64,000 nucleotides of DNA from Bugula neritina (Eukaryota > Animalia > Bryozoa): contig OZ037770.1 in NCBI GenBank assembly GCA_964035545.1, positions 10,622,463-10,686,462 on the forward strand. Reading direction: 5' to 3'. Position 1 is the stretch's first letter. Each line of letters starts with the position of its first letter. Of this stretch, positions 9,245-63,840 are shown one piece after another. The translations under genes and the position numbers were made by a program. The notes under the pieces are model-generated. The model saw only the letters and a list, made by a program, of their open reading frames with translations, was not told the DNA's origin and made no database searches.

Positions 9245-11367
9245 TCATACACTGGCAAAAAAATTTTTTATCTTACAAATATTAATATGCTGATTGTTCT
9301 CTGGTTGTTGATGGCATGTCTTTTCCATTCTTATACTGTTCAAACGAGCTCTTACAAACTTCAGTTCTCCGATCTCCACAACACCCTTCAATTCCATACA
9401 TACAGATACTTCCATCTGCTCGTCTTTTATGGAAACTGCCTCTTCAAACGTGATTTCTTTGTCACGGTTGTAGAACCTATGTAAATTAACATGACGCAAT
9501 TTAATCAGTTATTTTTTCGATTTTGAACTCAAATAAAAAAGAATTTTTTTAGTATAATATGGATATTTATAGTACTCACGTTGTGTCGCTACTGATGGCA
9601 TTTCCTCTAACACTGATGTATGTATGGGGGGTTTTGGTCCTACTCTTGACTACATAACCTTTTGCAGCTATTTCCCGCTCAATACCCTGGATAAATTTGA
9701 CTAGATGACTGGACTGGGCCAGTTTGACATTATAGCCAATCGGTTCTCCCTGAAATTCGCCATTAACCCACTTTTTCCGTGGCGCCAAGACTAAAACAAA
9801 AAAATATATATATTTATTTTATGTTAAATTAACGTTTGAGTAATTTTGGCAAATCACATACTTACAAATATTAAATAACTACAAATAGCAAAATTACTTA
9901 CATCCTTGACTGAGTTGGTTACGTGCAACAATCATTATATTCCTCTTTTTGTCGTCAAGCTTGTGGTAAATTGAGAGCCATCTACCAGTTCCCTTAACAT
10001 AGAAATTCACATGCATAAAATATTATAATAATTTAGTTGCATAGAAGAAAAAAAATTGTTAATAAGATATAAAAGTAAAAAAAAACAGGTCCCTAAACAC
10101 ATCAAAAATAAACTTGTATATAACTTTTCAAAAATTAATTACCTCTATAAGAAGGTCCTCAACTTTCGCATCCTCTAAGCGAATCGTATACACATGATCA
10201 TCATCACATGATAGATTTTGTAAATGATGTGGTGGTGGTGAATTGGAAATGGTCATAGTAGATGCAGAGGAAGGTGTCGGCAGAAGAACCCTACGTGGAG
10301 TTGAATCCACCTCCTCGACATCACTTCCTTTAACATAATCAAATACTTAGAATATTCATGGAATTTACGCAAATTACAATATCATTAGCATAGAAATACT
10401 AACCATTTGTGCTTGCAGAGCAAGCAGATGTCGAAGAATATTTGTTCATCTTGGCACTCCACTTTTTGAACATGGCCAAATTATCCTCAATTTCTTGTTG
10501 AGCCTCCTTGTTCATCAAAGCGCGTTTTGATGATATATCATTTTCTACATTGTCGTCGCTGCTCAAATCAAGCTTTCGTTTAATTGTAGAAGTCTGTAAA
10601 TTTTAAAAATTGTTTAAATTATGTGAATAAAATTCATCCATTTAAAATCAAAGTTAATTTCTGAATTAAAAGTTAACACCAGGGTTGGGGTCAATTACAT
10701 GTGAATGTAATTAATTACAATTACAATTACATGATAATTTGTCAATTACAATTACAATTATAATTACAGTCAAATAGTAATGTAATTAATTACAATTACA
10801 ATTACATGGCAATGTAATTAATTACAATTACAATTACTTTTGTTCTCGCAAGAGATAAATAGAAGTTATGCAATTTCGCTTCTAGGGTCCAACTAGCAGG
10901 GGCAATTTTGACAGTGCTGAACCTCCTTTGTACTCAACAGTAATACTATACCACATTGACAATTAATCTGAATTTGTTATTTAACAGTAGGCATGGTAGG
11001 AAAAGTATGAAACTTTTAGGATTTCAAAGTTTGAAGTAATTGACATGTAATTATAAAGTAATTGTAAAAATCAATTACATTAAATATGTAATTATTTACA
11101 ATTACATTTTTATACATCAATTACAAATTACATTCAATTACTTGAAAAAATGTAAATAATTACAACCAATTACAATTACAAATTACAATTACCCCAACCC
11201 TGGTTAACACCCACCTTTGTAGTTGGTCTGCCTTTTCCTTTTCCTTTACATTTTTTTGGTGCAAGTTGAGATGACATTTCTTCCTCATATTCTCCATCAT
11301 TCACCTCAATTGCTTCATCATTGATAAAGGTTTTCACAAGTTTTTTAAGTTGAGATTTTGGAGGCAT
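9245..11367 (-). CDS. Spliced 6-exon Polinton gene (359 aa), candidate OB-fold ssDNA-binding protein
   Basis: Exons 11367-11215, 10593-10404, 10345-10143, 9992-9902, 9790-9580, 9476-9245. All introns are GT-AG, phases 0/1/0/1/2 match, total 1080 nt with no internal stop. Joins four separate ORFs of the track. The function is an inference. Confidence 0.8.
10680..11202. mobile_element. hAT-family MITE inserted in an intron of the Polinton spliced gene
   Basis: TIR CAGGGTTGGGGT...ACCCCAACCCTG. Perfect 8-bp TSD GTTAACAC (10672-10679 and 11203-11210). Subterminal (CAATTA)n arrays. Confidence 0.93.
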
Positions 11368-11737
11368 CTACAAAAAAAAATTACTTATTAAAAGCATATT
11401 TGCACAAACATAATTAAGTTAAAGTGGTTTGAAATTATCAAACACAAAATAAACTTACAGAAAAAAAACTTTTCTAAAATATTTCAAGAAGTAAAAAATT
11501 ATAAAAACAAAAAAATATATATATTTATATATAGCTAATAATATTGTGATGCTATTGTATTTTAGAGTTGCCCCTTCATGACTGCATTACTGCTTGAATA
11601 ATTCATTATGTTTTGTGGACAAGCTCCGCATATCCACAAAACAAGTACTAACACATTCATGAAAGGGTAACTCCAAAATAACATAATCAAGTTTCACTAA
11701 ATATTTAGGTGCACCTAGAAACATAATATTAATTTTG

Positions 11738-11872
11738 TCAACATACTTGATTCGATTCTTCAACACAATTATATATCTCTGGAAAAATGTTATAGCAGTC
11801 ACACTGTGCACAGCCATCCCAAATATTTCCACAATATTCACACTTAACCAGTCCATCATCCAAAACACTCAT
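11738..11872 (-). CDS. 44-aa cysteine micro-protein (CxxCGNIWDGCAQCxC)
   Basis: Reads MSVLDDGLVKCEYCGNIWDGCAQCDCYNIFPEIYNCVEESNQVC*. Preceded by a TTTTAG acceptor (~11888) and an upstream GTAAGT donor (~12025). Below the 60-aa ORF cutoff. Confidence 0.6.
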   Translation of the reverse strand: MSVLDDGLVKCEYCGNIWDGCAQCDCYNIFPEIYNCVEESNQVC

Positions 11873-12617
11873 ACTTTTTATTTATTCTAAAAATCATTAA
11901 TTTAAAATCTAAACACAAACTTTATAATTTTTTGATGCTACGTACAAAGAAAAAAATTTTTTAATAATTTCATTTAATTTTCACATAAAATTTTGTTTAT
12001 TATTTATATATGAAATATTACTTACATTTTATTTTCTTTTGACTTGAGGCAGATTTTTAATTGATATCACAAACTGATAATGGTGAAACATCGAAAAGAT
12101 AGATATTTTATACAAAAAATTTCAATTAATCATGCTTAACTCATTCTCCTCCTACTAAAAATAACTATTCAATCCGATTGCTTTTTGGTTTTCAGCTAGC
12201 CAATGGGTAACTTAAGAGGTTGAACAGTTTTTCTAAAAAAATTTAACCCATGACTGTTACTTTAAACTTAAGTTATCCTTCAAGAGACTCACTTCAAATT
12301 GAATAAAAAAATTTATTTTTCAGTATATTATTATGATGCACCCTTTACTTCCGTATCTTAAGATTACTAAAAATTTTTGATTAGCTTTCTAAACTCTACT
12401 CACAATACATATTTGAAATCAATCTTAAAATACATTTGCAACATAAGTTTTTTTCATTCTTTTAACAAAGTTGAAAATTTTAAAAATTTCTGCATTACAT
12501 TGTTAAACTTTTAAAAATATAACATCCTTTATATAAGCAGTTTTATATAAAGCATTTTTATATAACATATTGTTTTTTTCTGAATGCTTCCAAGAGATTT
12601 ATGAAAATAAATTTTGT

Positions 12618-12839
12618 TTATAAAATTATATTGTTGCTTGAAACTGACTCAACAAAATAGTTTGATATACTCTTGTTTGGTGGACCTAAGAAAAAAATTC
12701 TTGGTATTAGTAAATTTGTAAAAGAAAATGTATATTTTTTTGTTTTTTTGTTTGTATGAAAATATTTAAAAAATATTGCAAAACTTTGCAGAATAAATGG
12801 CAATATTGATAAAAACAGAATTATAATAATAAAAGTCAT
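12618..12839 (-). CDS. Small membrane-anchored Polinton protein, 73 aa
   Basis: N-terminal hydrophobic helix followed by a Lys cluster. Starts just downstream of the ATPase stop. Confidence 0.45.
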   Translation of the reverse strand: MTFIIIILFLSILPFILQSFAIFFKYFHTNKKTKKYTFSFTNLLIPRIFFLGPPNKSISNYFVESVSSNNIIL

Positions 12840-12850
12840 GATCTATTGAG

Positions 12851-13976
12851 CTACTGATCAACATATACCACAACTTCTTCATCAAATGTATTGGATCTTA
12901 CTCTATATTTATCATCTGATGAGGCTTTCATGTCAATAAATAGGTGACCAAATTTTTTGCTAACTGCATCTTTGTAGCATTTAGATAAAAACTTTGAGTT
13001 CATCATTTGTCTTCCTAATGTAGATATAATTGACGTATCTCTAACAGACTTTAGCAACCATAAATAATGAGTGTTTAAACTTATTGTTCGAAAATACTTG
13101 CCTTTTTCAAACAGATTTTGAACTAATATAATTACACTAATATTCAAATGGTGAGAATATTTTGTATACAGGTCACACACTTCTTGTGACTCAGATAAAG
13201 TATTCATCAAATCGTCAATAATAATTAGCCTATGCTTATTGTCTCTTGGAATATCTTCAATATTTGTAATTCCTTCTAAAAATTTAATTGGAAATGGAAC
13301 TTGAATTTGTTCGTACAATGTCTGCCAAACACTGTAATTAATAATGCATTCTTCAACATTTGGGAATATAAGACTGTTGCTGTTTTCCAAAATCTTTTTC
13401 ATCAGAACACTTTTTCCGGATCCAGTAGGACCTGTATCAACAATTATGTTTTCCAACTTGGTTTCATTTCACTTTACTGCAGTTGAATAAAATAGTTGAG
13501 CTAAAAATTGTTTATACAAACTTTAGGTAATTGCAAAATAAAGCTTAACTACATTCTGTATAAGACTTGACTGCGATAAATCATTATTTGTGTCCGCTTT
13601 ATTTTTCTTTTCCGCTTTATTGACACGCAATCAAAAAATAATCCTAGTAAAAGCTAATTCCATTTACACTTTTAGTTTATCAATCTCCTGTGAATCTATT
13701 TTAATTTTTGTAATACCACAATTTTTTAATACATTAGCAACATTTATACTTCATCATTTTAGATTTAATTTTCTTAAGACGGTTTTAATCCGCTTAAACC
13801 AATTATATAGAAAGCATTTGTAATTAAATCAATCTAATCAATTTATTTCATCCATGACTTGACAAAAAATAATGGGGAAATTGCTAGGAAGTGAGTTGGT
13901 TTAGTAATTAATGTTTACCGTTAATAATTCCTGTGAATGGCGAATGAAGGGAAATGTCTATTTCTTTATTCTCCAT
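12851..13976 (-). CDS. A32/FtsK-like packaging ATPase, two exons (13976-13919, 13431-12851), 212 aa
   Basis: Splicing of a 487-nt GT-AG intron gives MENKEIDISLHSPFTGIING/PTGSGKS (canonical HPFT-xxx-GPxGSGK). Walker B IIIDDLM, plus HH.NISV...VQNLF and R.ISLN motifs. Confidence 0.92.
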
Positions 13977-13980
13977 TTAT

Positions 13981-14190
13981 TTATATTGTAGAATTTCTTT
14001 CAAGTAATGTAATATTATCGGTTGAGAATAATATTTTTTGTAAATTTTTAATTGATTCAACTGCTTTACTTTCTTCAGAAACTGAGTTATAAACAGTTAG
14101 AGTAATTAGAGCTGTCGTTAAGCAAAAAATTATAGCTAGCAATGATTTTTGATGACGGAAAATTTGTTCCATCAAGCTGAGATGTTGCAT
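13981..14190 (-). CDS. Small single-pass membrane protein, 69 aa
   Basis: Hydrophobic LLAIIFCLTTALITLTVY. Its stop lies 4 nt before the ATPase ATG. Confidence 0.5.
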   Translation of the reverse strand: MQHLSLMEQIFRHQKSLLAIIFCLTTALITLTVYNSVSEESKAVESIKNLQKILFSTDNITLLERNSTI

Positions 14191-14400
14191 GGTTGGTATG
14201 CTATATTCAAATGAATCCAGAAAATCAAAACCTTTAATTTTTATGAAAATTGAAGATGTAATTATAAAACATACTTTGTCAACTCACATCAACATTCTAT
14301 TTTATTATGTTATTCACAGTGATAGAATGAGAAACGTAAATACTAGAGTATAAAAGTAAATAATAATTTTTAAATGTATGCATTGCCTTTAAACAAATTA

Positions 14401-14895
14401 TTATACTTGTATATAAAATTGTTCTTCTTCCTTGACAATATTATTAAGAGAGGATAATAGTGTTTTTTGTAGAAACAATCTTCGACTTCTTGTTATCCAA
14501 AACATTTTGTTACATTTCCTATTGTCTCTATTTAAATGATTATACCTTTCCATATACAATTGTATTTTCTTCCAAGAAACATTATTTAATGCATCCTTGA
14601 AATACTTTTCAGTAAAGTTTTTTGCCCAACCATTGTCTAAAAGCTGAGTTTCATTCCATATGTGTAAGCATGTATGAGCAAATATTCTGTTTGGGTTAAG
14701 ACAAGCTTCACATGAATAATAAGCAAGCTTTTTGGTTTCAATCCATATTTGATTGCATATCTGGTAAAGTAGCACTTTATTGTAAATTGCTTTATGAAAT
14801 GTTGACGATGGAATATCATTCTGTAATAATTTGTCCATTAGTAAACTGTGGTATCCAATAATTACAACAACTGTCACAAAACTCCTTTTCTGCAA
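14401..14895 (-). CDS. Polinton accessory protein with CxxC...HxC metal-binding motif
   Basis: CEACLNPNRIFAHTCL within a 164-codon open frame. True start uncertain. Confidence 0.55.
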   Translation of the reverse strand: MQKRSFVTVVVIIGYHSLLMDKLLQNDIPSSTFHKAIYNKVLLYQICNQIWIETKKLAYYSCEACLNPNRIFAHTCLHIWNETQLLDNGWAKNFTEKYFKDALNNVSWKKIQLYMERYNHLNRDNRKCNKMFWITRSRRLFLQKTLLSSLNNIVKEEEQFYIQV

Positions 14896-15614
14896 AACAA
14901 GAATGACAAATGAACTGATAAGCTTGAATGATTTAGCAAAATAATGTAGTTAACTCTTGAATTCATGGTTGAAAAAGCTTTAGTTTCATTGGTTATAAAA
15001 AGCTCATGATTGTCTATAATGAAGGAATTTTGTGGAAGGCAAAGTTAACACTTGAAATATTTCCTGTCTTCATTTTAATTAATCATCTTAGAAGAAATAT
15101 ATAAAAGCATGTAAATACTCAAATTATTCAAACACATCCATGCATGGACAAGCTACTATAGGGTTCTGCAAAAGAAAGTTTTCACAATGCATGCATAATA
15201 TTATTATAATATGCATTATGTAACTTCAAACAATAACAATCATAATAATAATAATAATAATCATACCATCGACCTAGTGAAACTAGGTTGTGGTTATAAA
15301 AGGTTACACCAGCTAAAAAGCTGTGATACAACCAATAATAATAATAATAATTAATAACAACACTTTCACAAGACTCCAATTATTTGCACTATATGTCTAG
15401 TTGAATACTTCTTTACAAACAAATGTTCAAAATATTTATTACAAAATTACAAAACCTATCTTATACCAACGAATACTTTCACTTTGCAATCCAATTATAT
15501 ATCACCATACTTTGAATATTATTCAATGCATTTAGTATAATATAATATTTCGAATGTATATGATCATTGTTTGTCAAAAAAATCATGTGAATAAAGCTTT
15601 TACATATAGCTTAC

Positions 15615-16085
15615 CTAATAAGATATCTGTTTATACGTAATGTACAAACATATTATCATCATTAATATTCCAAGCAAATGTAAAATAAACAAATACTTGC
15701 TCTTACATGAACTATCAATATGTTGCTGACATATCTCAATCAAAGTTTCAATTTTCTTTATATCATGCTGAACAAGCAATGAATCTGATAACTGAACAAT
15801 GATGCACATTATTTTAAAATACTTGTCTTCTCTTGAAACATTTGAAATGCTGAACATATATTTAATAAATGTGTTGATGTTTTGAGGAAAATTTGGACAT
15901 GATATCAAAATGTTTCCAAGATTTTTACACAATTTAACTTCGTTTATGGTTAACATTTTATATTTTTTCTTAAAATGCTTCACATGCTTTGTTTCCACAA
16001 AAAAAGGAGAGCAGCACAACCAATTCTCTGACAACGTAGACCATACAAAATCATGAACTATAGATGAATGAACAAATCTAGTCAT
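15615..16085 (-). CDS. Accessory protein with C-terminal membrane anchor, possibly a divergent Bcl-2-like protein, 156 aa
   Basis: N-terminal IVHDFVWSTLSENW (BH4-like), helical body, and tail anchor LFILHLLGILMMIICLYITY followed by K. Confidence 0.45.
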   Translation of the reverse strand: MTRFVHSSIVHDFVWSTLSENWLCCSPFFVETKHVKHFKKKYKMLTINEVKLCKNLGNILISCPNFPQNINTFIKYMFSISNVSREDKYFKIMCIIVQLSDSLLVQHDIKKIETLIEICQQHIDSSCKSKYLFILHLLGILMMIICLYITYKQISY

Positions 16086-16231
16086 TTTGCTAGCACGGTA
16101 TGGACTTGAGTATATGTGCTTGTTTTCACATCTACCACAATAATAAAAATAATTTCAAATATCACAACTTTTATTTGGTTCATATTCACTTTTATATTAA
16201 CACAGAGTAAAGTAACTGTTCATCTGTTTTA

Positions 16232-16810
<579 letters not shown>

Positions 16811-16826: not shown

Positions 16827-18697
16827 GAAGTCTATGAATTTATCTACCTGGAAGCCGGCAGTGAATTTATTTGGTGAAGAACTCAACTTTGGAAATTATT
16901 CCCATCAGCAATTTTACTGTTCCAGCGTAAGTTGAATTTTATTTTACTTTCTTCAAATTCTTTTTTCTCATAATAGTTCAATAATATGATTATACTAAAA
17001 GTAAATTTTCAAAATGATATATATATACATATCCTTAAGTTCTAATAAAAATGACAGGTATTATAGAAAATAACATTTCTAGTTTTTTCTCTGTCATTTA
17101 TAAAACCAATAATATAACAACTATATAAGCATTTTTGCAATACTATAATATTTTTTCTATCTAAATACTATACAAATTTGATCTATAAAATTTGCAAACT
17201 TGAAAAATTATTTTAATCAAAAGTATAAAAGAATATTAAAATTTTGCTTTTAGTTATAGATACAATATTCTGTAGGTAGACCACAGCATATGTCTTGCAA
17301 TAATTTACATGCTGCACAGGCAATCCTTTGTATTCCACAACTGTATGATAATTATGACAGAGTAAGTTAACATGGATTGTTTTAAAAAGGCTTCAGAAAG
17401 ATCTGTCTTTATTGCTTTGTTTTTATTTTGATGCAATATGATAGTGTTTTTGAAAGATGTTAGATTCATAACCAAGCTACGCTGAGTACTATACGTGATG
17501 AGGGTCTATACCTGCTATAAACACTGGATGAAAAATATTTTGTCCAATATTTTATCATAATCTAGTTTCAGAATTTTTCTGACTTGCAGGTAAATATACT
17601 AGAAATACGCTATTTATTTTTTATTTTAGTACTTATTGTAAATAAAAAATAAACTGTAGCTAAATGTTTAATTTTGCAGCCCATCTTTACTGGTTGGATT
17701 GTGCTAGAATGCTTTACGTTTTCACCTTTTGTGATTGTATTTCTTGTTTCGACAGTGCTCGGAATAAAAGAGTAAGTTTTCAGTGCAACTACAGCTGTCT
17801 ATATTATTACAATGAAGTGTTAGATACGAGAATATAGGCTAATATTTAGCTATTTTATGTTAACCAAAGGCAATACTGAAAACTTGTAATTTAAAAAATT
17901 TAACATATTTGCAGTATTTACATGTACAGAAAAAAACTTGCAGGTTGATTTTAACAGAGTTCATTACAATTTTTTTGTGATGTTGCTGTATCTTTTTCTT
18001 AAAATAAAAACTCACGCAAGTTTATAGTCGCTATCCCTGTGAGAAACCCCTGATGGTAAGGGTTTTTGCTAGAACGGGCTAAGGACTTGTTTAAATGAGG
18101 CACAGGAGCAATTATGACTGGATGCTCTTCCTAACATCACCAATGGCCTTTGTCGGGGCTCGAACCCACAACTTCGTGTTCACAAAGCAAACGCTTTAAC
18201 CCCTAAACCACGGCTGCTCCCTGTATTTTTTCTTAAAATTATACTGCTAAAATGAGGTAATAAGGAATTAAGAATTAACCTATTCTTATAATCAAGAGGC
18301 CAAGGTAAAACATTGAAGTTTTCACATCAACTTTTGTACAACTCATCCTTAGATTATGTATCAAACTAATCAATAATTATTTTCAATGCATTCACAGCAC
18401 CTGTTGCCATAAGTTTGCAAATGTTGTATATATGCACACGGTGTACAAGCAATCACTGCATTTTTAAACTTAAGCTATATACCTTTATTGGTATATTGAT
18501 TATTATATATCAATCAATATATTGGCAGATCTATTGGTTTATGTACTAACGGAAATAATAATGTTAGTGAATCAAAATATTTTATTCCATTTTATCTCCC
18601 TCTTATTTGTTTTCTTTTTAGTATTTTTAGTAAAGTGTGTGGAAAGAGAAACAAAAAGTCGAGGGAAAAAGATGGCAGCAAGGTAGAAGCTGCCTAA
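16827..18697 (+). CDS. 3' exons of MS4A/CD20-like four-TM host gene, paralog 1
   Basis: Exons 16827-16926 ([10 protein letters not shown]...FYCSS), 17680-17771 ([13 protein letters not shown]...) and 18631-18697 (stop). GT-AG, phases consistent, homologous to paralogs 2 and 3. 5' exons presumably lie left of the Polinton. Confidence 0.72.
18010..18221 (-). mobile_element. tRNA-derived SINE with V-SINE-like core
   Basis: Minus-strand head GGGAGCAGCCGTGGTTTAGGGG...GGTTCGAGCCC (A and B boxes). Core GGTGATGTTAGGAAGAGCATCC. Near-perfect flanking duplication TGTAT(C)TTTTTCTTAAAAT. Confidence 0.88.
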
Positions 18698-29328: not shown

Positions 29329-29543
29329 ACTCACGCAAGTTTAAAGTCACTATCCCTGTGAGAAACCCCTGGTAAAAAAAGTTTCTGTTAAAGAAGGCTG
29401 AGGACTTATGTAAATGAGGTACAAGAGCAACTATTTGGAGTCGTACTCTTCCTAACATCACCAATGGCTTTTGTTCGGGCTCAAACCCAAGGCCTTGTGT
29501 TCGCTAGGCAAACGCTCTAACCCGTAGGCCACGGCTGTTCTCT
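29329..29543 (-). mobile_element. Same SINE family, copy 2
   Basis: Homologous to 18010-18221. TSD CCAACCCCCACTGCAAACTC at 29313 and 29544. Confidence 0.88.

Positions 29544-47495: not shown

Positions 47496-63840
<16,345 letters not shown>

What the first reader, a model, noticed from the sequence alone, without database searches (positions are those of the whole stretch)
9245..11460. Hidden 6-exon Polinton gene next to pPolB, candidate T7 gp2.5/NCLDV-type ssDNA-binding protein
Seen: four small ORFs plus two unlisted exons splice through five GT-AG introns with matching phases into one 359-aa protein. An upstream non-coding exon (donor at 11458) and an AT/TATA-rich segment precede it. The N-half is low-complexity with NLS-like KRKL. 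The C-half (VKFIQGIEREI...TTFYNRDKEITFEEAV...MEVSVCMELKGVVEIGELKFVRARLNSIRM) has the helix-then-beta pattern I associate with gp2.5-like viral OB-fold SSBs. Inference: this is a replication module (SSB plus protein-primed polymerase) analogous to adenovirus E2 DBP/pol. An SSB is not among the standard Polinton core genes, and heavy splicing would hide it from ORF-based surveys.
Basis: partly seen in the sequence, partly recalled or inferred. Interest (0 to 1): 0.88.

Follow-up and report, generated by a model that had tools for sequence, protein, structure and literature searches.

The report
Intron-hidden ssDNA-binding gene in a Polinton
A virus-like jumping gene (Polinton) in an animal genome carries a multi-exon gene, spliced in public sequencing data, directly in front of its DNA polymerase, and its product is likely a phage-T7/giant-virus-type single-stranded-DNA-binding protein that would coat the element's DNA during copying, although the full fold and the binding are untested.

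Summary
The spliced gene is real. Five introns are bridged by contigs of sister copies in 2-5 studies each and by none in a DNA-like control run. Two corrections: intron 2 uses the acceptor at 10328, and the first exon is probably coding, not a non-coding exon ending at 11458: a Cys-rich exon (11872-11747; one contig) gives 7 exons and 395 aa. The SSB identity is likely but not shown. The last exon's nearest labelled Atlas clusters are giant-virus DUF2738/DUF5871 (0.85-0.86), a DUF5871 protein folds like T7 gp2.5/Enc34/CP312R, and the last exon models as the matching helix plus hairpin. But seven profile or pairwise tests were weak or null, no full-length homolog could be folded, the T7-type acidic tail is absent, and sister copies show no excess of silent changes. 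Unexplained: the gene's stop is followed at once, in frame, by the polymerase frame, whose two zinc fingers precede any ATG, so a read-through SSB-polymerase fusion is possible. Ten literature searches found no SSB described for animal Polintons; this scan noted Polinton SSBs before in other genomes.

The parts
11747..11872 (-). Probable first coding exon (aa 1-42), Cys-rich C-x2-C...WDG...Q-C-x-C module; 5' extent of the exon unknown; unspliced it would give a 44-aa peptide
   Evidence: weak MJ0042-type zinc finger hit E 0.0076; same motif in a giant-virus ORF on L070
11215..11367 (-).
10594..11214 (-). Intron of 621 nt holding a 531-nt MITE-like insertion (14-nt inverted ends 10678-10691 / 11191-11204)
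   Evidence: joint skips 621; inverted repeat; contigs of X1/X2 lack 531 nt here
10404..10593 (-). Exon (aa 94-157) with KRKL
10143..10327 (-). Exon (aa 157-218), Ser/Thr/Pro-rich; acceptor at 10328
   Evidence: joint skips 76
9902..9992 (-). Exon (aa 219-249), start of the candidate OB domain
   Evidence: joint skips 150; X4 record 19 and X9 record 25
9580..9790 (-). Exon (aa 249-319), middle of the candidate OB domain with the amphipathic stretch LVKFIQGIEREI
9245..9476 (-). Last exon (aa 319-395 and TGA): predicted helix and long beta-hairpin, then a tail ending in a PIP-box-like I-x-x-F-F
   Evidence: joint skips 103; model; homologs P0001, P0002, P0004
5063..9244 (-). pPolB frame, 1393 codons stop to stop, same frame as the last exon with one TGA between; first ATG at residue 119
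   Evidence: polymerase identity rests on recalled family-B motifs read (no Pfam polymerase hit)
9077..9232 (-). Two C2H2 zinc fingers at residues 5-56 of the pPolB frame, upstream of its first ATG
   Evidence: best E 1.3e-7
12851..13468 (-). A32/IVa2-like packaging ATPase
   Evidence: below curated cut-off, E 1.8e-4
2639..3724 (-). Integrase with chromodomain
27..1361 (-). Double jelly-roll major capsid protein
   Evidence: DJR-like E 0.0016, below cut-off
16232..16680 (-). Probable element end: starts AGTAGT at 16680, with 3.4 copies of a 133-nt repeat; the other end lies outside the window
   Evidence: AGTAGT as a Polinton end is recalled

Best explanation
This Polinton carries a spliced gene directly upstream of its polymerase whose product (probably 395 aa) is likely a T7 gp2.5/giant-virus-type single-stranded-DNA-binding protein that would coat the strand displaced during protein-primed copying of the element. 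Shown: the introns, the open frame, the position. Inferred: residues 219-372 fold as a T7-type OB barrel with a basic surface (pI 9.6); the low-complexity N-half with KRKL carries it into the nucleus; the Cys-rich first exon binds zinc; the conserved I/L-x-x-F-F end docks on a partner such as host PCNA or the polymerase in place of the acidic tail of T7 gp2.5. Gene and polymerase likely share one transcription unit (one contig runs from spliced exons 5-6 on into the polymerase frame), giving much SSB and little polymerase, as adenovirus E2 does by other means.
For: Splicing in 2-5 studies per intron, none in the DNA-like run. A DUF5871-matching giant-virus protein (L241) modelled at pLDDT 94.6 hits only T7-type SSBs at E <= 0.001: CP312R, Enc34, DUF2815, T7 gp2.5. 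The last exon models as helix 10-15, strands 21-35 and 38-52, the order and lengths of the last elements of that model. HMM of 35 giant-virus proteins: 6 of 500 shuffles reach the real score, matching the last-exon region in the 16-sequence version; glocal score z 2.3, 6 of 400 shuffles, above the three T7-type controls (z 0.6-1.9). A 44%-identical relative (P0002) begins matching exactly at the exon-6 acceptor and keeps the F-F end, so intron and protein are old. SSBs stimulate protein-primed replication (passages, 10.1101/2021.03.25.437074).
Against: No Pfam, PHROG, NCBIfam or PDB hit to an SSB for any exon. hhalign probability 0.7% and 1.4%; block-chain z 1.3 (115 of 1000 shuffles); MAFFT-add pattern score equal to shuffles (55 of 100) while T7-type controls scored 48-75 against 42; pairwise mean z 0.09; 32 of 600 real decoy windows beat the glocal score. 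Atlas scores are under 0.9, only 3 of the ten best labelled hits share a family (the tool calls that probably wrong), and exon 5 gave no hit. No acidic tail (1 D/E in the last 25 residues, T7 has 15). Among listed sister-copy differences 6 of 24 in the exons are silent (neutral expectation 0.24) against 4 of 4 in the polymerase after its ATG, and three non-conservative changes fall in the predicted last hairpin.
Confidence: 0.64

Rival explanations
1. The gene is real but its C-half is not a T7-type OB-fold: it is some other alpha/beta DNA-binding, regulatory or structural protein, and the likeness to giant-virus SSBs is a generic amphipathic pattern.
For: Most sequence tests are null; fold searches with the last-exon model give nothing; a third of shuffled proteins reach Atlas 0.8.
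Against: True T7-type SSBs also fail the glocal and block tests; the Atlas labels are the family predicted in advance; the fragment model is too small to identify a fold.
Confidence: 0.2
2. It descends from a T7-type SSB but now mainly does something else, such as recruiting or blocking host factors through its long disordered N-half and F-F tail; ssDNA coating is left to host RPA.
For: Exons diverge 1-5% between sister contigs against about 1% in the polymerase core, with no silent-site excess; no acidic tail; 176-aa low-complexity region.
Against: The candidate OB region stays basic with 13 aromatic residues; position next to pPolB; the variant tables are partial (40 of 349 and 40 of 171 rows shown).
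Confidence: 0.13
3. The spliced RNA is only a leader of the polymerase transcript and encodes no functional protein.
For: Near-neutral share of silent changes; no full-length protein in the databases.
Against: 395 open codons across six junctions; a 44%-identical relative keeps frame, intron position and end motif; indels listed in sister copies between 9100 and 10680 fall in introns (12 of 17 rows shown).
Confidence: 0.03

Closest known systems
T7-type SSBs of Nucleocytoviricota (Pfam DUF2738 PF10927 / DUF5871 PF19196; ASFV CP312R, PDB 8hw5, 7yeq; mriyavirus PEV_26, PMC11253617 passage)
   Same: Nearest labelled Atlas clusters of the last exon; same predicted order of final helix and hairpin; viral replication context.
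   Different: Similarity not significant by profile; here the gene is split by six introns, has a Cys-rich exon and a long low-complexity N-half before the domain, and no acidic tail.
Phage T7 gp2.5 (1je5), Enc34 SSB (5odj-5odl), DUF2815 (4klk, 4jg2)
   Same: Fold family to which the giant-virus neighbours belong.
   Different: No detectable sequence match; T7's acidic tail (15 D/E in 25) is replaced by a basic-hydrophobic end.
DUF2738/5871 genes of Polinton-like viruses (figure legend of 10.1101/2022.07.28.501842)
   Same: Same family reported in related preplasmiviricot elements.
   Different: Listed there as an unknown protein, in algal PLVs, not as an SSB of an animal Polinton; no splicing mentioned in the passage seen.
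Adenovirus E2 unit (DBP, pTP, Pol); phi29, PRD1 and Bam35 SSBs
   Same: An SSB paired with a protein-primed polymerase; spliced expression in adenovirus (recalled).
   Different: Adenovirus DBP is not an OB-fold (passage); analogy of function, not homology.
Polinton pPolB with TP-vOTU-EXO-PALM layout (PMC11161782 passages)
   Same: Large fused polymerase with a long N-terminal region.
   Different: That paper's main text has no occurrence of SSB, DBP, intron, splic or zinc; here two zinc fingers lie before the first ATG, in frame with the upstream gene.

Membership tests
T7 gp2.5 / NCLDV-type OB-fold SSB | Whole domain folds as a T7-type OB barrel | tested here: inconclusive
   Only the last exon could be modelled (pLDDT 59; helix + hairpin); fold searches uninformative; no natural full-length homolog found.
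T7 gp2.5 / NCLDV-type OB-fold SSB | Profile similarity to DUF2738 / DUF5871 / gp2.5 | tested here: inconclusive
   Atlas 0.85-0.86; HMM 3.5 bits, 6 of 500 shuffles; glocal z 2.3; null.
T7 gp2.5 in the narrow sense | Acidic C-terminal tail | tested here: not met
   1 D/E in the last 25 residues; T7 15; 15 giant-virus proteins 3-12. Not filed as gp2.5 proper; the tail is not uniform in the wider group.
T7 gp2.5 / NCLDV-type OB-fold SSB | Sequence-independent ssDNA binding | not testable with these tools
   Needs a binding assay.
T7 gp2.5 / NCLDV-type OB-fold SSB | Control: DUF5871 proteins are T7-type SSB folds | tested here: met
   L241 protein, pLDDT 94.6, Foldseek E 3e-7 to 3e-5 to CP312R, Enc34, DUF2815, gp2.5.
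Polinton/Maverick | Integrase, double jelly-roll capsid, packaging ATPase | tested here: met
   rve + Chromo, DJR-like, Pox_A32/Adeno_IVa2 (capsid, ATPase and rve below curated cut-offs).
Polinton/Maverick | Protein-primed family-B polymerase | tested here: inconclusive
   1393-codon frame with recalled polymerase motifs; no Pfam or PDB polymerase hit.
Polinton/Maverick | Terminal inverted repeats and maturation protease | not testable with these tools
   One end seen at 16680; the element runs off the window and no genome is held.
PCNA-interacting (PIP) box | Q-x-x-[ILM]-x-x-[FY]-[FY] (recalled consensus) | tested here: inconclusive
   I/L-x-x-F-F in the last 12 residues here, in P0001 and in P0002; 6 of 461 background ORFs have it; the Q is missing.

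The most novel reading that the evidence does not exclude
Animal Polintons hide a seven-exon T7-type SSB whose stop codon is leaky, so that one spliced transcript makes abundant free SSB ending in a PCNA-binding tail and, by read-through, a rare ~1790-aa SSB-zinc-finger-terminal-protein-polymerase polyprotein; read-through would then be the way this polymerase gets its start.
Probability: 0.17. Interest if true: 0.85.

Novelty: new variant of a known kind. Interest (0 to 1): 0.58.

Why it matters
Polinton replication by a protein-primed, strand-displacing polymerase should expose long single strands, yet the papers seen list no SSB for animal Polintons. A T7/giant-virus-type SSB hidden by six introns would fill that gap, show that ORF-based surveys miss part of Polinton gene content, and link Polintons, PLVs and giant viruses through one more replication gene, while adenoviruses use an unrelated DBP. 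It names a defined, spliced coding sequence that can be expressed and assayed. The in-frame stop between this gene and the ATG-less polymerase start is a separate, testable puzzle about how Polinton polymerases are translated.

Tried and rejected
No whole genome is held, so copy number and the far end were not examined. Homolog searches for a full-length protein found none: exon 5 longer, exon 6 longer, alignment A2 longer; phmmer over 1.84 billion proteins gave 5 hits, of which P0003 and P0005 are repeat-like chance hits. No related locus in viral contigs with exon 6, polymerase, capsid or A2, in genome contigs or in phages; the one metagenome locus, L001, is an unrelated bacterial-type contig matching 25 residues. 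PF10927 rang in 0 of 22 and 0 of 26 virus records; PF19196 rang in 12 of 26 and supplied the comparison set. Fold searches with the last-exon model: no E <= 0.001 in BFVD, best Z 3.2 in PDB. The complex prediction of the three domain exons as separate chains gave no answer (score 0.01). No stable RNA structure after the stop (z -0.13). Acceptor 10346 and donor 11458 rejected for lack of joints. A hidden donor in the last exon (GTAAG at 9276) was considered and dropped: it leads to no frame that keeps the zinc fingers and P0001 has a different residue there. Contig depths were not used to rank expression.

Full report
Setting. Bases 1-16680 of the window hold part of a Polinton/Maverick with its long frames on the minus strand: capsid (27-1361), integrase with chromodomain (2639-3724), a 1393-codon polymerase frame (5063-9244), packaging ATPase (12851-13468) and a probable end at 16680 followed by 133-nt repeats. 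The polymerase call rests on recalled family-B motifs read; Pfam and PDB matched only its zinc fingers. The host is an AT-rich genome that I did not identify; no whole genome is held.

Observation. Contigs of seven public runs were laid on the region (7 of 19 listed). Joints skip 103 nt (5 studies; sides up to 205 letters), 76 nt (5 studies; up to 91), 150 nt (4 studies; up to 90) and 621 nt (3 studies; up to 153), all with CT..AC ends on the plus strand. Several other sides are only 27-30 letters, a length the tool flags as weak. Intron 4 is masked by a repeat, but X4 record 19 and X9 record 25 bridge it by exact count; X9 record 25 is one 540-nt contig over four exons. Run X16 shows no joint and matches 9552-10318 with 0 differences, so it behaves as DNA. 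Only X13 is on record as RNA. The contigs come from sister copies 1-5% away, so the splicing is shown for the family, not for this exact copy. Two corrections follow. The 76-nt joint fixes the acceptor at 10328. The donor at 11458 has no joint among the 15 of 25 shown; instead X13 record 13 continues from 11367 into letters matching 11747-11776 (2 mismatches), and X2 and X3 contigs end at 11747. This adds a 42-codon in-frame exon: 7 exons, 395 aa. It rests on one contig plus two contig ends, and unspliced contigs over 11338-11776 exist too (X1, X2).

Anatomy. Residues 1-42 are Cys-rich; the same C-x2-C...WDG..Q-C-x-C motif occurs in a 143-aa giant-virus ORF on L070, found by a pattern search of 330 loci, with no Pfam family. 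Residues 43-218 are low-complexity with basic patches. Residues 219-372 are basic (pI 9.6) with 13 aromatics; the last 23 residues hold one acidic residue. phmmer with the last exon found three credible relatives among 5 hits: P0001 (85%), P0002 (44%) and P0004 (45%). P0002 is a read-in from genomic DNA whose match starts at the exon acceptor, so the intron position is shared, and it keeps the I/L-x-x-F-F-A end. That pattern is in 6 of 461 background C-termini and recalls a PIP box lacking its Q (recalled consensus; untested; it could also reflect a DNA or RNA signal overlapping the end).

Is it a T7-type SSB? For: the Atlas placed last-exon residues 1-55 next to Nucleocytoviricota clusters only, with DUF2738 (0.86) and DUF5871 (0.85) as the labels. 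To see what these are I fetched giant-virus DUF5871 proteins, folded one from a 35-sequence alignment (pLDDT 94.6) and found that all ten listed matches with E <= 0.001 (11 counted) are T7-type SSBs or their DUF2815-type relatives. Its last elements are a short helix and two strands of 13 and 12 residues; the last exon models as a short helix and two strands of 15 residues (pLDDT 59). Against: the Atlas scores are below 0.9, the tool's agreement count is 3 of 10, exon 5 gave no hit. I ran seven kinds of direct comparison of the spliced domain, all told here: local HMM (13 of 500 and 6 of 500 shuffles reach it; several unrelated window ORFs score as high or higher; T7 profile 326 of 500), hhalign (0.2-0.7%), hhalign of the last-exon alignment (1.4%), glocal profile (z 2.3 and 2.1; 32 and 80 of 600 decoys higher; T7-type controls z 0.6-2.2), ungapped blocks (z 1.3; T7 controls also null), MAFFT-add pattern (null, while T7 controls did somewhat better) and pairwise (null). 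So sequence neither proves nor excludes the link. The whole domain could not be folded because no natural full-length homolog was found.

Selection. I classified 44 listed differences (27 of 40 rows and 17 further rows; dropped: duplicates, rows from one divergent contig at 9476-9577 and rows inside intron 1; the tables show 40 of 349 and 40 of 171 rows). Silent: 4 of 4 in the polymerase after its ATG, 2 of 7 before it, 6 of 24 in the gene's exons, where 0.24 is the neutral share. The gene keeps its frame and splice sites but changes fast, including three non-conservative changes in the predicted last hairpin. This counts against a tightly constrained core enzyme and fits either a tolerant SSB or a protein in conflict with the host.

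The polymerase start. The gene's TGA (9247-9245) is followed at once, in the same frame, by the polymerase frame. Two canonical C2H2 fingers lie at residues 5-56; the first ATG is residue 119. Sister contigs of X16, X1, X4 and X13 cross this place without gaps; one X9 contig has one gap somewhere in 9203-9474. No joint enters 9100-9260 among the six joints (joints from outside 9100-10680 would not be listed there; 17 of 30 loose ends shown). X13 record 10 runs from spliced exons 5-6 to 8941; a contig across two genes does not prove one transcript. Options: read-through of the TGA, re-initiation (an out-of-frame AUG overlaps the stop), a rare splice (earlier scan notes report spliced polymerase leaders in other Polintons), or fingers that are not translated. 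Same frame has a one-in-three prior and no RNA structure stands out. I cannot choose; read-through is the boldest reading.

Mechanism, committed. Protein-primed strand-displacement copying leaves long single strands; an element-encoded SSB would protect them and speed elongation, as shown for Bam35 (passages, 10.1101/2021.03.25.437074). I put 0.64 on a working T7-type SSB, 0.13 on an SSB-derived protein with another main job, 0.20 on another fold, 0.03 on no protein.

What is known. T7-type SSBs are reported for four nucleocytoviricot families and mriyaviruses (passages, PMC11253617; the 2012 primary paper PMC3519460 is not held) and for Ariadnavirales (passages, 10.64898/2026.08.29.747986). 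DUF2738/5871 appears as an unknown protein in PLVs (legend), and DUF2738 is counted 21 and 12 times in two Hydra genomes without explanation in the passages seen (table, PMC7642931). Term searches in PMC11161782, PMC8502044, PMC11131425, 10.64898/2026.06.19.733378 (36), PMC4981718, PMC10748475 and PMC9341512 showed no Polinton SSB; I saw passages only, no supplements. Ten library searches (listings) gave no paper describing one. Subscription journals, supplements and Repbase annotations were not seen and may bear on this. This scan has already noted SSB-like genes in Polintons of other genomes, which are unchecked AI notes, and no look-alike of this sequence.

Verdict. A real, well-supported hidden spliced gene; probably a new spliced, tail-swapped variant of T7-type viral SSBs in an animal Polinton; fold and binding untested; with an unexplained in-frame junction to the polymerase. 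Interest 0.58.

Noticed in passing
window 10678-11204: MITE-like insertion in intron 1 with 14-nt perfect inverted ends and (AATTAC)n arrays; contigs of X1 and X2 lack 531 nt here, which would leave a 90-nt intron.
   Followed up: partly
window 9245-9247 / 9244-8890: Single TGA between the gene and the in-frame, ATG-less zinc-finger start of the polymerase; start mechanism unexplained.
   Followed up: partly
window 12025 and 11887 (minus strand): Donor-like GTAAGT and acceptor-like TTTTTAG upstream of ATG 11872 could mark a further non-coding exon or a trans-splice site; X2 and X3 contigs cross it unspliced.
   Followed up: no
window 16232-16680: Probable element end with 3.4 copies of a 133-nt unit, abutting a long (TA)n array.
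   Followed up: partly
window 12618-12842, 13981-14283, 14401-14949, 15615-16154: Four accessory ORFs of the element, two with hydrophobic stretches; the three that were scanned have no Pfam hit.
   Followed up: no
window 53098-57885: Fragmented LTR retrotransposon (gag-like, RT, RNase H, integrase zinc finger).
   Followed up: no
window 18125-18219, 29446-29540, 62775-62869: Three dispersed copies of a 95-nt repeat that looks tRNA-like by eye, possibly a SINE.
   Followed up: no
L070:1777-2205: 143-aa giant-virus ORF without Pfam family carrying the same C-x2-C...WDG..Q-C-x-C motif as the first exon.
   Followed up: partly
38 joints 9903-9957 and 9969-10279: Non-canonical joints with extra letters in X1, X2, X3, X4, probably from divergent or rearranged sister copies.
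   Followed up: no
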